A stretch of 64,000 bases of DNA from a virus, in IMG/VR virus record IMGVR_UViG_3300045012_000181, positions 61,607 to 125,606 of that record; one strand, written 5' to 3'. Each line of letters begins with the position of its first letter. Positions within the stretch are counted from its first letter, which is position 1. Positions 57,101-60,526 of this stretch are shown in pieces. The notes under the pieces were generated by a model that was given only the letters and a program-made list of their open reading frames with translations, ran no database searches and was not told the origin of the DNA. Made by a program: the position numbers and the translations under genes.

Positions 57101-57257
57101 TTGTTTTCCTTAAAAACCTTAGAAGAGCCTTGGAACAGTCTTGACACAGCTCTTTGTCCACATCAAGAGACAGTCCCTCCAGACTTAAACGACATTGTTC
57201 ACAAAACTCAGGTATGTCTTTAGCACATCTATCACATCTGACTACGGTTTTTCTCAT
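57093..57257 (-). CDS. 54-aa Cys-rich peptide MRKTVVRCDRC...LCQDC
   Basis: ATGA overlap with the polymerase stop; three CxxC. Confidence 0.6.
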   Translation of the reverse strand: MRKTVVRCDRCAKDIPEFCEQCRLSLEGLSLDVDKELCQDCSKALLRFLRKTIE

Positions 57258-59752
57258 TTCGCCTCGCCCCAACTTCCCCCCACACCTGTTTCAACAGGAA
57301 AACTGTAGCCTCCAAACTCTTTCCAAGGCTGCGTAAGAACCTTCTCTAAAACGGTCTTTACCTCATCCACCATATTCAGGGGGGTCTCCAAAACAAAACT
57401 ATCGTGCACAGTTACCAACAGACGAGCCGGATGCGGTAGAGGATGATAAACCTGAACCACCTTTTGAACCTCAGATTCAGGCCAACCGATTCTGTCGTAC
57501 ATCAGGGCAATCATGCAACGGATAAGAATCTCGGCGCCGCAACTTTGAGGGAGGAAAGAAATCGACTCAGTATGGGCGCTGGAAGTGTAGAAAAAACGCT
57601 TGCGCCCGAAGGGATTTGTTAGATAGCCGTCGGCTTTGGCTCGGGCTGCGGTTTCGTTCTGCCAAGCGATGGTTTTGGGATTGGCAGCCTTCCATTTGTC
57701 CACCAGAACTTTTACCTCGGCGTAGGGCAAGTCGTTAATCTTGGCTATCTTCATAGCCCCCTCAGCGTAGTTCAAGCCGTGGGTGACCTTCTTGGCCTTT
57801 GTGTATGGACTGTCTCCTGCGGAATCTTTTACGACTTCATCGTAGGGAATATCAAATAGGGTGCTGGCATTGTATTTATGCTCGGAATAACCAGGTTGTG
57901 CCAACCTATCTAGGCGTTCGTAGTCATTAGACAACAACGCCGTTAGGCGGTTCTCCAGGGAAGCAAAGTCCGAACTTACGATAACCCAATCGTTGTGACT
58001 GGGAACGTAAATATAGCGAGCACTTGCAGGAAGATTTTGAAGATTGGGTCCGCTACTCGATAGTCGCCCCGAGGCAGTTCCATGAACATTAAATGAGGCA
58101 TGAATGCGCTCGACACCGCTGTCCTCCCAGCTCTCCTTCACGAAAGTGCTTAGCAAGCTGGCAATCTGTCTTAGCTGTTGCAGGACTCGCAGGGCCTTGA
58201 GGACTTCGAGGGCTTTGTCGAGTCCGACTTCCTGTTCGTAGGCTTTTCGGGAAGCCGCCCGGATGAGCTTGGGAAGGGCGACCTTGTCAACAGTCGGTTC
58301 ATTCGTCTTCGCATGCGTTTGTACTGGGAGCTTCGCTTTCGCATATAAGTAATCCTTCAGAACCTCAGAGCTCTTCCAAGGCGTAACACTCTCGGTGGAG
58401 TCCGTCATCACATATTTGAGGGGCTTTTTTGTGCGCTCGGACAGAGTTCCAGGAGGCGCCAAAACGCGTTTGCGTATCGGGACCTCCTGGGTCTGTAATT
58501 CCGCTGGAAGTTCGTTCTCCAGCTCTTTTGACTTGTGCTCCAAGTCTGCCCGAACAGTTTTGAGACGGGCGGGATCGATTCGGAATCCGGTTTCGTGCAG
58601 CAGATGGCAGATACGGGCCAAGGGCACTTGGACATTCTGGTACAAATCCAAGAGTCCCTCATTCCGGAGCATTGGCCGCAGTTGCTGGTAAATTTGAAAG
58701 GTCGCGTCACAGTCCCTTATGTTGTAGAGGGTTTCATCGTCGCCGGATAGATGCTTCCAAGCGGTCTTATTAAGCAGGAAGCTTCCAACGAAGCCCAAGC
58801 CATGAGGCATATCAGGGAAGCACAAATGTTCCATAAGCATGCCATCCCACGAATGGAAGTCCTTGGGAGGCTCTATGCCGATGGCCTTGAGACGGGGCAA
58901 ATCGAACTGCTCACCATTCCAAGTTACAATGTCCGTGGCGTTGGCAAAAATACGCTTGAGCTCAGTTAGATAGACGCCCTTTGGGGGCACACTTAATCCG
59001 GTGTACTTTTGGCCGCACAGACCCACCATGGTAATTTCGCCGGTGGTACGGACCGTTTCTATGTCCGTCGCGAATTCCCTGAACTGAAAGGCCCTCACGT
59101 CCTCCAAAGTTGGAGTGGTGTTGTAGTGTTCCGGAGCGAGGTCTAGCGTTTTCGAGAGGTCTTTGACAACCGCTGGGATGTAGCTTTGGTCGCGGGCGAT
59201 ATAGGCCGGGTGCAACGTCGGGACTGTAAGGGGCTCCGGACCGCACGCGGGAACTGCGAGGGGAGAACCGCGCCATCGCATGATTCCAGTTTTTCCGGTG
59301 AGCGCAATAAGGCTCTTATCGCCAAAGCAATCAATCCGAGTCCAATTACGACCAGTGAGAACGGGCTTAACATGGTTGTTCCAGCATTGTTTTAGTGCGG
59401 CTTCCGCCTCTTCCTTCGATATGTAATCTCGTGCATCAGGATCAGTAGGAAAAATATTACCAGGGGGCCTACAACCCAATACGTTGCACTTCGAAACGGT
59501 TGCGCCTTCGACTCCAGCAGCGCGGTATAAACCTCCTGAACGCTTGCCATTTTCACCCTCTTTTCCGAACAGCCAGCCACCGCTCGTGCCCACGAAGGGC
59601 TCGGAGCGCTCGGCCTCAAGTTCACCGGGCGCCTCGCCCACACACAGGCGGCTACCAGCAACCAAATGGGCCGGAACAAAGTTGGAATTCGGGAAGAGCC
59701 GCGCCATGGGACATCCGGCACAGCCTGGAGTTTCACTAACGGTCTTAGGCAA
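57254..59752 (-). CDS. polA: Family A DNA polymerase with N-terminal uracil-DNA-glycosylase-like domain (SPO1-type fusion)
   Basis: CAGCPM/VGEAPG/HPAY UDG motifs; TDIET, WNGEQFD exonuclease; GRLSSSGPNLQN, DFASLENR, KKVTHGLNY, VHDS. Confidence 0.92.
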   Translation of the reverse strand: MPKTVSETPGCAGCPMARLFPNSNFVPAHLVAGSRLCVGEAPGELEAERSEPFVGTSGGWLFGKEGENGKRSGGLYRAAGVEGATVSKCNVLGCRPPGNIFPTDPDARDYISKEEAEAALKQCWNNHVKPVLTGRNWTRIDCFGDKSLIALTGKTGIMRWRGSPLAVPACGPEPLTVPTLHPAYIARDQSYIPAVVKDLSKTLDLAPEHYNTTPTLEDVRAFQFREFATDIETVRTTGEITMVGLCGQKYTGLSVPPKGVYLTELKRIFANATDIVTWNGEQFDLPRLKAIGIEPPKDFHSWDGMLMEHLCFPDMPHGLGFVGSFLLNKTAWKHLSGDDETLYNIRDCDATFQIYQQLRPMLRNEGLLDLYQNVQVPLARICHLLHETGFRIDPARLKTVRADLEHKSKELENELPAELQTQEVPIRKRVLAPPGTLSERTKKPLKYVMTDSTESVTPWKSSEVLKDYLYAKAKLPVQTHAKTNEPTVDKVALPKLIRAASRKAYEQEVGLDKALEVLKALRVLQQLRQIASLLSTFVKESWEDSGVERIHASFNVHGTASGRLSSSGPNLQNLPASARYIYVPSHNDWVIVSSDFASLENRLTALLSNDYERLDRLAQPGYSEHKYNASTLFDIPYDEVVKDSAGDSPYTKAKKVTHGLNYAEGAMKIAKINDLPYAEVKVLVDKWKAANPKTIAWQNETAARAKADGYLTNPFGRKRFFYTSSAHTESISFLPQSCGAEILIRCMIALMYDRIGWPESEVQKVVQVYHPLPHPARLLVTVHDSFVLETPLNMVDEVKTVLEKVLTQPWKEFGGYSFPVETGVGGSWGEAK

Positions 59753-59768
59753 TCAAACTCCTGTTTCT

Positions 59769-60050
59769 AAAAAGTGGACCGACGGGGTGTACGACCTTCT
59801 GGTCCTCTTATCGCAGGTTCCTCAGCCGGTATAAGCTAGCATTGCCGGCAAGATTGCGCCCGGGCGCCCCTAGAATGTCCCCTCGGCCCGAGGGCTTGGA
59901 GGGTCTAGGGGAACTCAAATTCTCGTGGCAGTAACGAGCTCACACAGTCTACAGGGCCTTTTGAGCCCTGTGCGCATACCCTGCGCTACCCCCCGGAGGG
60001 GGTTTGGGGTCGAACCGAAGTAACTGTGCAATACGACATGCCACGAAACC
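59769..60050 (-). ncRNA. Large structured RNA containing a permuted tRNA-like domain (59942-60029)
   Basis: At least 10 helices by inspection; T-arm, closed acceptor hairpin, D-arm and anticodon arm in permuted order. Confidence 0.6.
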
Positions 60051-60052
60051 TG

Positions 60053-60526
60053 TTACAAAATCGGACGTTGTTTCTCAGCAACTCGGATGGCCTCGTCCAG
60101 AGGTTTGCCCATATTAGAAGAACCCCAGCCAAATTTAGTCCCCGAGACGTAGGCCCCGGTATAGGTGGCCTGGATGCCCTCGCGGTACTTCTCCTGTGCC
60201 AGCTGGCGCTCGCGATCCGACTGCCAAGCCAGTATGACGGCCTGCAACTGCCAAGGGTCCGTTGGAACCTGGGCGTCCTCCATGCCCTGTGGGAGCCAGA
60301 TTCCGGCCATCACCCGGGACCACTCGGCATCCCTTGCACGGGCAACCAATCCACGATACATCAGCAGAGATTCCGTGGCGCCCCTCAGCACGCTCCGGCG
60401 GATATCCTGCATCAATTCATGCTGGACCTTCGAGACGTGCTCGAATACGGCCTCGCCTGTTACAAGGTTGGCTACCCTATTGGCCAGCTCTTCAGTTTGC
60501 TGACGTTCGTTTTTTTCTTCGCTCAA
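60053..60526 (-). CDS. Hypothetical helical protein
   Basis: TTGA overlap with the upstream gene. Confidence 0.6.
   Translation of the reverse strand: MSEEKNERQQTEELANRVANLVTGEAVFEHVSKVQHELMQDIRRSVLRGATESLLMYRGLVARARDAEWSRVMAGIWLPQGMEDAQVPTDPWQLQAVILAWQSDRERQLAQEKYREGIQATYTGAYVSGTKFGWGSSNMGKPLDEAIRVAEKQRPIL

What the first reader, a model, noticed from the sequence alone, without database searches (positions are those of the whole stretch)
59942..60029. Circularly permuted, tip-closed type-II tRNA-like fold upstream of the DNA polymerase
Seen (minus strand, in order): GCACAGT, TAC, T-arm TTCGG-TTCGACC-CCAAA, a 14-nt hairpin CCCCCTC/CGGGGGG (exactly positions 66-72 joined to 1-7), TA, D-arm GCGC-AGGGTAT-GCGC, A, anticodon arm CAGGG-CTCAAAA-(GG)-CCCTG, TAG, ACTGTGT. 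The flanking 7-mers pair as a long variable arm through which the RNA enters and leaves. U8, A14, G15, G18, G19, Y32, U33, R37, C48, G53, T54, T55, C56, A58 and C61 are all in place, and the CAA (Leu) loop fits a long-variable-arm tRNA. With no discriminator/CCA and a 2-nt anticodon-arm insertion, it looks like a mimic rather than a working tRNA. Known: permuted tRNA genes are described from some algae and an archaeon; I know of none in phages. Inference: a decoy for anticodon nucleases, a LeuRS/RNase P/ribosome-binding leader controlling the TTG-started polymerase, or a precursor opened at the acceptor tip.
Basis: partly seen in the sequence, partly recalled or inferred. Interest (0 to 1): 0.88.

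Follow-up and report, generated by a model that had tools for sequence, protein, structure and literature searches.

The report
Orphan tRNA-like Y RNA in phage
The tRNA-shaped fold is real, but it is a Y RNA of the already known YrlA type, the small RNA partner of the Ro60 protein that this phage also encodes, placed unusually far (80 kb) from the Ro60 gene; it is not a new kind of permuted tRNA.

Summary
The order T-arm, tetraloop-capped acceptor hairpin, UA, D-arm defines YrlA-type Y RNAs (Chen 2014, PMC4201824), which were described in bacteria and 22 phages.

The same 125.6-kb phage record encodes a Ro60/Rsr (TROVE) protein with four Y RNAs beside it, plus an RtcB ligase.

The element is really about 136 nt (window 60052..59917, minus strand). 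The "flanking 7-mers" are the inner part of a long bulged stem. That stem carries the Ro60-binding motif (UGUCGUA), the conserved UUAC(UUC), and the 3'-strand motif CUCGUUAC.

A covariance model built only from 47 Y RNAs of other phages finds it full length at 33.9 bits (E about 5e-7). It is the only hit in the window.

It differs from typical phage YrlAs in four ways:
- It has no V hairpin.
- It has an extra 7-8-bp hairpin after the D-arm.
- Its T-stem is weak.
- It lies 80 kb from rsr, just upstream of the DNA polymerase gene.

No ortholog was found. Verdict: a new, slightly aberrant member of a known family. Binding to Ro60 is inferred, not shown.

The parts
59917..60052 (-). Whole Y RNA (about 133-136 nt); starts directly after the stop codon of the upstream ORF
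   Evidence: Full-length match (model positions 1-146) of model R2, built from other phages' YrlAs, at 60049..59917: 33.9 bits, E about 5e-7. Fold z = -5.39.
60039..60051 (-). Outer stem, 5' strand; pairs with 59917-59930
   Evidence: MFE and pair probabilities 0.95-1.0. Corresponds to helix 1 of the family, which covaries strongly.
60032..60038 (-). UGUCGUA: a bulged U followed by the putative Ro60-binding motif GNCG(A/U)A
   Evidence: Published motif GNCGAAN0-1G. The motif with its spacing to UACUUC occurs 7 times in this genome (4 in the rsr array) against 1 in 913 kb of control DNA.
60022..60031 (-).
   Evidence: Pair probabilities 0.93-1.0. Corresponds to family helix 2.
60020..60023 (-). 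UUAC, the conserved YUAY of YrlA; in the phage family it extends to UACUUC
   Evidence: Invariant columns U28, C30, U32, C33 in alignment A5. YUAY is described in PMC4201824.
60003..60019 (-). T-arm mimic UUCGG-UUCGACC-CCAAA; weak stem with a C.A mismatch
   Evidence: Aligned to the family T-arm by R2 with one non-standard pair. Low thermodynamic probability. L205 has the same fusion with UUCGG/CCGGG.
59989..60002 (-). Closed acceptor-stem mimic: 5 G-C pairs plus a UCCG tetraloop
   Evidence: Pair probability 0.997 or more. Same geometry as the rsr-linked YrlA, CGGUC-GCAA-GACCG.
59972..59988 (-). UA (U8, A9) plus D-arm mimic GCGC-AGGGUAU-GCGC
59952..59970 (-).
   Evidence: Treated as an insertion relative to the family model. 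Pair probabilities 0.82-1.0. A smaller hairpin at the same place exists in L284.
59931..59941 (-). 3'-strand motif GAGCUCGUUAC; family consensus UCGCUUGUUCC
   Evidence: consensus; alignment. Its A pairs with the U of GUCG, a position that covaries in the family (pair 15-160).
57254..59752 (-). Context: downstream UDG-PolA DNA polymerase gene. Not part of the RNA
   Evidence: Pfam DNA_pol_A 8.8e-39; homologues.

Best explanation
The element is a phage-encoded Y RNA of the YrlA class. It is a roughly 136-nt RNA whose 5' and 3' ends pair into a long bulged stem that carries the Ro60-binding motif. The apical part folds into a tRNA-like head made of a T-arm, a loop-closed acceptor stem and a D-arm.

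It most likely binds the Ro60/Rsr ring protein encoded 80 kb away in the same genome. It would then act, as other Y RNAs do, as a gate and tether that couples Ro60 to a tRNA-recognising or RNA-degrading host factor such as PNPase.

Shown here: the fold, its family membership by sequence and structure, and the presence of Rsr, four other Y RNAs and RtcB in the genome. Inferred: transcription, Rsr binding and the effector.

Compared with typical phage YrlAs it has lost the V hairpin, gained a hairpin after the D-arm, and is unlinked from rsr.
For: 1. The genome encodes a TROVE/Ro60 protein and an RtcB ligase. Rfam YrlA hits just upstream of rsr (33 bits).
2. The order and geometry match the rsr-linked YrlA exactly: T-arm, then a 5-bp tetraloop-capped hairpin, then UA, then a 4-bp D-arm. 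These are the only two such sites in the genome.
3. The 5' module G-N-C-G-(A/U)-A, then 9 nt, then UACUUC is present with the same spacing as in Y RNA arrays beside rsr in other phages. It occurs 7 times in this genome against 1 in 913 kb of control DNA.
4. Model R1, built from this element alone, hits Y RNAs next to rsr in other phages: L284 at 35.6 bits (E 1e-5), L165 at 26.4 bits, and about 20 more.
5. Leave-one-out test: model R2 was built from 47 YrlAs of other phages. Its structure is backed by covariation (87.5% of cells paired, covariation score 0.68 against 0.20 in shuffles). R2 finds the element full length at 33.9 bits, E about 5e-7. It is the sole hit in the 64-kb window and one of five in the genome.
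6. The U of GUCG and the A of GUUAC form a U-A pair at a position that covaries in the family (G-C, C-G, U-A, A-U).
7. Phage Ro60 binding to phage Y RNA-like molecules, and assembly with host PNPase, are experimentally documented for Thermus phage phiLo (PMC12135203).
Against: - It is 80 kb from rsr. Published YrlAs are nearly all within 4 kb. In five complete Rsr phages all 19 full-length hits lie in the array beside rsr.
- Rfam RF02553 does not report it even at E up to 10. The rsr-linked phage YrlAs also fall far below that model's gathering score (25-37 against 69 bits).
- The Ro60 motif deviates from the published one: GUCGUAUUG against GNCGAAN0-1G.
- The T-stem is weak.
- No ortholog was found, so this copy has no covariation of its own.
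- There is no expression evidence and no recognisable promoter.
Confidence: 0.8

Rival explanations
1. It is a decaying, non-functional duplicate of a Y RNA gene that landed upstream of the polymerase gene and is no longer used.
For: Weak T-stem with a C.A mismatch. Loss of the V arm. A singleton with no ortholog. Lower family score (33.9 bits) than the main YrlA (97 bits).
Against: All other helices are intact and very stable, including a 14-bp outer stem and a 10-bp closing stem. The Ro60 motif, UUAC and the 3' motif are kept. Its score equals that of three bona fide members of the rsr array (30-46 bits).
Confidence: 0.1
2. It is a remnant of two adjacent tRNA genes, the 3' half of one followed by the 5' half of the next. 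This is a known false positive for YrlA searches.
For: Chen 2014 warn that dimeric tRNAs can mimic the T-then-D order. Relatives carry tRNA genes upstream of their polymerase genes, for example tRNA-Thr at L086:2063-2136. Rfam tRNA gives 14 bits on the 5' half.
Against: - There is no discriminator or spacer, and the two acceptor strands pair with each other through a tetraloop.
- It is flanked by the Y-RNA-specific bulged stem, the GNCG(A/U)A motif, UACUUC and the CUNGUU(A/C)C motif.
- No tRNA gene exists anywhere in the genome.
Confidence: 0.04
3. It is a cis-acting leader that controls translation or transcription of the downstream DNA polymerase gene, for example by binding a synthetase, RNase P or the ribosome.
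For: Position about 165 nt upstream of the polymerase start, on the same strand. A weak terminator-like alternative hairpin lies at 59938..59922.
Against: - Polymerase homologues at 60-78% identity have no such element.
- The intervening 164 nt are not significantly structured (z = -0.21).
- The element has all the marks of a trans-acting Y RNA.
Confidence: 0.04
4. It is a true permuted pre-tRNA, or an anticodon-nuclease decoy, that is processed (ends joined in the variable arm, acceptor tip opened) into a tRNA-like molecule, perhaps using the phage RtcB ligase.
For: The re-permuted sequence is called a tRNA by ARAGORN. The phage encodes RtcB. M. smegmatis YrlA is cleaved by RNase P and receives CCA.
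Against: - There is no BHB motif, and no splicing endonuclease is expected in bacteria or phages. Known permuted tRNA genes have a 1-74-nt intervening sequence and are confined to algae and one archaeon.
- There is no discriminator base.
- The acceptor stem is only 5 bp.
- The 'anticodon' loop closes to 5 nt.
- No CCA-adding enzyme was found in the phage.
Confidence: 0.02

Closest known systems
YrlA (Y RNA-like A), Rfam RF02553; Chen et al. 2014 (PMC4201824); structure in Wang et al. 2018 (bioRxiv 10.1101/312249)
   Same: - 5'/3' stem carrying a GNCGAA-type Ro60 motif.
- YUAY.
- T-arm, then a loop-closed acceptor stem, then UA, then a D-arm, with tRNA tertiary-contact nucleotides (U8, A14, G15, G18/19, C48, GUUCGA).
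- No free CCA end.
- Encoded by a genome that has Ro60, on the same strand as rsr.
   Different: - 80 kb from rsr rather than within 4 kb.
- No V stem-loop: UUAC runs straight into the T-stem.
- A 7-8-bp hairpin lies between the D-arm and the closing stem, so the entry stem sits at the variable-arm position and the extra hairpin at the anticodon-arm position.
- Motif GUCGUAUUG.
- Weak T-stem.
- Not reported by the Rfam model.
   Same: Same bulged stem, UACUUC motif, 3' CUUGUU(C/A)C motif and tRNA-like head. L284:2811-2941 also lacks a V hairpin and has a small hairpin (ACCC-GAAA-GGGU) after the D-arm. L284 and L165 share the GUCG...GUUAC variant.
   Different: Those all lie in tandem arrays directly next to rsr. 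Most have an anticodon-loop-like V hairpin and a strong T-stem.
Yrl1/Yrl2 of Thermus phage phiLo (PMC12135203)
   Same: Phage-encoded Y RNA-like molecules with a CGAA-type motif in a stem-bulge-stem. They are shown to bind phage Ro60 and to assemble with host PNPase.
   Different: Located upstream of the phage Ro60 gene. No tRNA-like head is described in the passages I read. No sequence comparison was made here.
Circularly permuted tRNA genes of Cyanidioschyzon merolae, green algae and Thermofilum pendens (review PMC3978253)
   Same: The 3' half (T-arm and 3' acceptor strand) is encoded before the 5' half. The flanks pair.
   Different: Those have BHB motifs cut by the splicing endonuclease, an intervening sequence removed by RNase P and tRNase Z, and CCA addition, and they give working tRNAs. 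Their junctions lie at 20/21, 37/38, 50/51 or 59/60. None of this applies here.
Deinococcus radiodurans Yrn1
   Same: A Ro60-bound Y RNA with a T-arm-like loop and, in one drawing, an anticodon-arm-like hairpin.
   Different: Different orientation of the arms and a different lineage. No full D-arm.

Membership tests
YrlA-type Y RNA | A Ro60/Rsr (TROVE) protein is encoded in the same genome | tested here: met
   PF05731 over cut-off at G000:C1:40191-41045, in a 464-467-aa frame.
YrlA-type Y RNA | Encoded within about 4 kb of rsr and on the same strand | tested here: not met
   Same strand (minus) but 80 kb away: C1:121523-121658 against rsr at C1:39687-41081. In five complete Rsr phages all full-length hits are beside rsr.
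YrlA-type Y RNA | GNCGAAN0-1G motif near the 5' end, in a stem formed with the 3' end | tested here: inconclusive
   It reads GUCGUAUUG, with U instead of A at position 5 and two N. The same A-to-U change occurs in the rsr-linked Y RNAs of this phage (GCCGUAG) and in many other phage units. The bulged stem is present.
YrlA-type Y RNA | Conserved YUAY after the stem | tested here: met
   UUAC at 60023..60020, part of the UACUUC motif that is invariant in 47 phage units.
YrlA-type Y RNA | T stem-loop, acceptor-like stem-loop and D stem-loop in that order, with tRNA-like conserved nucleotides | tested here: met
   The T-stem has one mismatch and is thermodynamically weak.
YrlA-type Y RNA | Score at or above the Rfam RF02553 gathering threshold (69 bits) | tested here: not met
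   No RF02553 match at E up to 10. Rsr-linked phage YrlAs also reach only 25-37 bits, so this model is poorly suited to these phages.
YrlA-type Y RNA | Recognised by a covariance model of phage YrlAs built without it | tested here: met
   R2: 33.9 bits, E about 5e-7, full length, the only hit in the window and one of five in the genome.
YrlA-type Y RNA | Physically bound by Ro60/Rsr; carries pseudouridine 55 and dihydrouridine | not testable with these tools
   Needs immunoprecipitation, gel shift and modification mapping.
tRNA gene | Contiguous cloverleaf with a free acceptor end, a discriminator and a 7-nt anticodon loop | tested here: not met
   ARAGORN finds none. Rfam tRNA gives 14 bits against a gathering score of 29. 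The acceptor is closed by a tetraloop. The loop closes to 5 nt.
Circularly permuted tRNA gene (algal/archaeal type) | BHB motif at the junction; an intervening sequence between the 3' and 5' acceptor ends; matures to a working tRNA | tested here: not met
   There is no intervening sequence or discriminator. The flanks form a long Y-RNA stem rather than a 3-4-3 bulge-helix-bulge. Only the re-permutation test is positive, as expected for any good tRNA mimic.

The most novel reading that the evidence does not exclude
The orphan copy is not a stray duplicate but a specialised Y RNA. Its extra hairpin sits at the true anticodon-arm position and the Ro60-binding stem enters at the variable-arm position. 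It is encoded at the head of the replication module rather than with rsr. It could therefore load the phage Ro60 at a different time of infection or onto a different partner than the rsr-linked Y RNAs do. It might even link Ro60/Y RNA to DNA replication, as reported for vertebrate Y RNAs. That last point rests on my own knowledge and on the abstract of a review listed (PMC11825425), which names DNA replication among processes Y RNAs are implicated in; I did not read further.
Probability: 0.08. Interest if true: 0.6.

Novelty: new member of a known kind. Interest (0 to 1): 0.3.

Why it matters
It removes a tempting but wrong headline ("first permuted tRNA in a phage") and gives the locus a testable identity.

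It shows that Y RNA genes can lie far from the Ro60 gene. Published searches were restricted to, or validated by, a 4-kb neighbourhood of rsr, so dispersed copies would be missed.

It adds a topological variant to the tRNA-like heads of Y RNAs: no V arm, and a hairpin after the D-arm.

This phage carries Ro60, five Y RNAs and RtcB but no tRNA genes. That makes it a compact system for asking what phage Ro60 particles do. Two possibilities are hijacking host PNPase, as proposed for Thermus phage phiLo, and tRNA repair or counter-defence.

Tried and rejected

Homolog searches that found nothing:
- Megablast of the region against phage genomes: no match.
- BLAST of the element and the whole intergenic region against 160 polymerase loci: nothing beyond self.
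- Model R1 on polymerase-homologue loci: no hit. The element is therefore not a conserved polymerase leader.
- IMG/VR pattern scan for UACUUC fused to a T-loop: 67 hits, nearly all coding sequence or ordinary tRNAs. Only L205 was relevant.
- IMG/VR pattern scan for TGTCGTA-N8-TTACTTCG: 78 hits, but only the already known L284 contig resembles the element.
- The polymerase protein is absent from five Rsr phages, so Rsr phages are not relatives of this phage.
- The genome search with R1 missed even the L165 match that cmsearch finds directly, so its negative result is uninformative.

Rejected ideas:
- A shared 'slot' with L086's tRNA-Thr: the upstream ORFs are not homologous.
- A roughly 280-nt ornate RNA including 59753-59916: that part has z = -0.21.
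- Two further 5'-motif matches, at C1:58035(+) and C1:89261(+), have no support from R2.
- The alignment made by R1 (A4) was too ragged in the core to use. It was replaced by A5.

Full report
OBSERVATION

- GCACAGU, UAC
- UUCGG-UUCGACC-CCAAA
- CCCCCUC/CGGGGGG
- UA, GCGC-AGGGUAU-GCGC, A
- CAGGG-CUCAAAAGG-CCCUG
- UAG, ACUGUGU

The 88 nt fold at -45.2 kcal/mol (z = -4.42; no shuffle is as stable). ARAGORN finds no tRNA in the window or in the whole 125,606-bp virus record. Rfam finds nothing at gathering thresholds. A permissive scan gives only tRNA at 14 bits (E = 7.5) on the part running from the 5' acceptor strand through the D-arm to the next hairpin.

When the pieces are re-joined in tRNA order with an artificial loop on the flanking stem, ARAGORN calls a long-variable-arm tRNA at default settings.

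Base-pair probabilities give these results:
- The closed 'acceptor' hairpin (5 G-C pairs plus UCCG), the D hairpin, the fourth hairpin and the flanking stem are essentially certain.
- The T-stem, which has a C.A mismatch, is weak (0.11 or less).
- The fourth hairpin closes to 7-8 bp with a 5-nt CAAAA loop, so it is not a convincing anticodon loop.

WHAT SURROUNDS IT

The element lies between a 157-aa ORF (60526..60053) and a UDG-PolA polymerase gene (59752..57254).

Folding with flanks shows that the 'flanking 7-mers' are only the inner part of a long interrupted stem reaching 60052 and 59917 (-66.1 kcal/mol, z = -5.39). Its parts are:
- a 13-14-bp outer stem;
- a bulged U;
- a G-C/U-A step;
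- an internal loop;
- a 10-bp inner stem.

The remaining 164 nt down to the polymerase start are not significantly structured (z = -0.21). No sigma-70-like promoter is seen.

THE KEY CONTEXT

The same virus record encodes a TROVE-domain Ro60/Rsr protein at C1:39687-41081, on the same strand and 80 kb away. It also encodes an RtcB RNA ligase. I found no CCA-adding enzyme.

Just upstream of rsr, Rfam's YrlA model matches at 33 bits. The match reads GCGGG-UUCGAGC-CCCGU, CGGUC-GCAA-GACCG, UA, GCUC-AGUUGGGA-GAGC. That is the same order and geometry as the element under study.

Chen et al. 2014 (PMC4201824) define YrlA Y RNAs by exactly this design:
- a 5'/3' stem with a GNCGAAN0-1G motif for Ro60;
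- a conserved YUAY;
- an optional V stem-loop;
- then the T, closed 'acceptor' and D stem-loops, with tRNA tertiary-contact nucleotides and no free CCA end.

They reported these RNAs in 254 bacteria and 22 phages. They also warned that dimeric tRNAs are the main false positive.

TESTS OF MEMBERSHIP

1. A mechanical scan for 'T-arm, then a closed hairpin, then U-N, then a D-arm' finds two sites in the genome: this element and the rsr-linked YrlA. In 0.9 Mb of polymerase-homologue loci it finds only one evidently spurious site, inside a coding region.

2. The 5' module G-N-(C/U)-G-(A/U)-A, then 8-10 nt, then UACUUC occurs seven times in the genome. Four are in the rsr array and one is here. It occurs once in 913 kb of control DNA. 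The same module heads every unit of the tandem Y RNA arrays beside rsr in other uncultured phages.

3. A single-sequence covariance model of the element (R1) hits Y RNAs next to rsr in other phages: L284 at 35.6 bits (E about 1e-5), L165 at 26.4 bits, and about 20 more. The matches share the stem motifs UGUCG(U/A)A and GCU(N)GUUAC.

4. I collected 47 complete YrlA units from 80 Rsr loci of other phages and aligned them (A5). Their common structure is strongly supported:
   - 87.5% of cells are paired, against 63% in shuffles.
   - The covariation score is 0.68, against 0.20 in shuffles.
   - Slid controls score 0.09-0.16.

5. Model R2 was built from that alignment. Neither the element nor anything else from its genome went into it. 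R2 finds the element full length at 60049..59917 with 33.9 bits (E about 5e-7). It is the only hit in the 64-kb window (the next best is 7 bits). R2 also finds four Y RNAs in the rsr array at 97, 46, 39 and 30 bits.

6. The U of GUCG pairs with the A of GUUAC. That position covaries across the family (G-C 40, C-G 2, U-A 2, A-U 1).

HOW IT DIFFERS FROM ITS FAMILY

- In typical phage units, UACUUC opens a V hairpin that often has an anticodon-like CU-NNN-AA loop. This is followed by AGGUC and then the T-arm. After the D-arm an A-rich linker leads to the closing stem.
- Here UUAC runs directly into the T-stem (UUCGG), so the V hairpin is absent. R2 deletes 21 positions at this point.
- A 19-nt hairpin is inserted after the D-arm.
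- The closest analogue is L284:2811-2941. It also lacks a V hairpin and has a small ACCC-GAAA-GGGU hairpin after the D-arm, but it sits next to rsr.
- A unit in L205 has the same UACUUCGG-UUCGACU-CCGGG fusion with a fully paired T-stem.
- The location is unusual. In five complete Rsr-phage genomes all 19 full-length R2 hits lie in one array beside rsr.

SEARCH FOR ORTHOLOGUES

Polymerase homologues at 60-78% identity do not carry the element. One of them (L086) has a genuine tRNA-Thr upstream of its polymerase gene, but the upstream protein genes are not homologous.

Two IMG/VR pattern scans found no further relative. The element is therefore a singleton. Its own helices cannot be tested by covariation, and a recently stranded or decaying copy cannot be excluded.

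MECHANISM

By membership, the RNA most likely binds the phage Rsr ring through the 5' strand of its bulged stem and presents a tRNA-like head to a host or phage factor.

Documented for relatives:
- Ro60-Y RNA-PNPase complexes in Deinococcus and Salmonella.
- TruB and DusA modification of Salmonella YrlA.
- A phage Ro60 that binds two phage Y RNA-like molecules and assembles with host PNPase (PMC12135203).

Inferred for this RNA: that it is transcribed, that it binds Rsr, and what its head recruits. Opening at the acceptor tip is unlikely, because RNase P cleaved only the YrlA with a 7-bp stem and this stem has 5 bp. A true permuted pre-tRNA is very unlikely, because there is no BHB motif, no intervening sequence and no discriminator.

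RELATION TO EARLIER NOTES OF THIS SCAN

I reached the Ro60/YrlA link independently before consulting the notes.
- The notes on the rsr-linked array (anticodon-like V hairpins; two head topologies) agree with what I saw.
- The note that this element is nested in a roughly 280-nt ornate RNA is not supported.

VERDICT

The interpretation as a novel permuted tRNA-like element is superseded by a known class. It is a new, somewhat aberrant and unlinked member of the YrlA Y RNA family. Confidence is about 0.8 and interest is modest.

Noticed in passing
G000:C1:39687-41081 and C1:41092-42524 (outside the window; loci L162, L317-L321): Phage Ro60/Rsr gene with at least four tandem Y RNAs upstream (R2 scores 97, 46, 39 and 30 bits). 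Only one has a full tRNA-like head. A possible fifth unit lies near C1:41873, where the 5' motif occurs without an R2 hit.
   Followed up: partly
G000:C1:32072-33148 (outside the window): RtcB RNA ligase gene (PF01139, 159 + 57 bits) about 7 kb from rsr. This matches the gene set of the Salmonella rsr-yrlBA-rtcBA RNA-repair operon. No tRNA genes and no CCA-adding enzyme were found in the record.
   Followed up: partly
L086:2063-2136: A genuine tRNA-Thr(UGU) lies about 320 nt upstream of the 67%-identical UDG-PolA gene. Other polymerase relatives have tRNA-Asn, tRNA-Pro and tRNA-Gln within 2.5 kb upstream. The region ahead of this polymerase family often holds small RNA genes.
   Followed up: partly
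L141:1245-1313 and L035:1077-1151: ARAGORN calls 'tRNA-???' with a two-base anticodon (tg), meaning unusual anticodon loops, upstream of polymerase homologues.
   Followed up: no
L239, L165, L288, L304, L303, L287, L296 and others (alignment A5, columns about 33-52): In many phage YrlAs the V hairpin starts inside UACUUC and has a 5-bp stem with a 7-nt loop of the form CU-NNN-AA (for example CUGCUAA, CUAUUAA, CUGUUAA). This is an anticodon-loop look-alike at the variable-arm position.
   Followed up: partly
Alignment A5, pair of columns 15 and 160: The second base of the GNCG motif covaries with a base in the 3' motif GUU(N)C (G-C, C-G, U-A, A-U). So this part of the putative Ro60 site is a base pair, not a single strand.
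   Followed up: yes
window 59922-59938 (minus strand): An alternative local hairpin CUCGU-UACUGCC-ACGAG followed by AAUUUGAGUU (terminator-like) competes with the 3' strand of the Y RNA outer stem. It could mark the 3' end or an alternative conformation.
   Followed up: no
window 59753-59916 (minus strand): The rest of the intergenic region contains several G+C-rich hairpins, but as a whole it is no more stable than shuffled sequence (z = -0.21). A 280-nt 'ornate RNA' is not supported.
   Followed up: yes
P0003 (1132 aa), P0016, P0030, P0058; L083:2047-5439, L086:2501-5371: Several close UDG-PolA homologues are about 250-350 aa longer than the window's protein. One (P0058) carries an intein-splicing Pfam domain, which suggests intein insertions in this polymerase family.
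   Followed up: no
L205:772-1591: A phage contig with a tandem array of at least four Y RNA units of different head types: a full tRNA-like head, a short-V form and minimal forms. This shows how variable the heads are within one array.
   Followed up: partly
G000:C1:58035(+) and C1:89261(+) (the latter is about window 27655): Two further matches to the 5' Y RNA motif (GUCG(U/A)A, a spacer, UACUUC) on the opposite strand, with no R2 support. Probably chance.
   Followed up: partly
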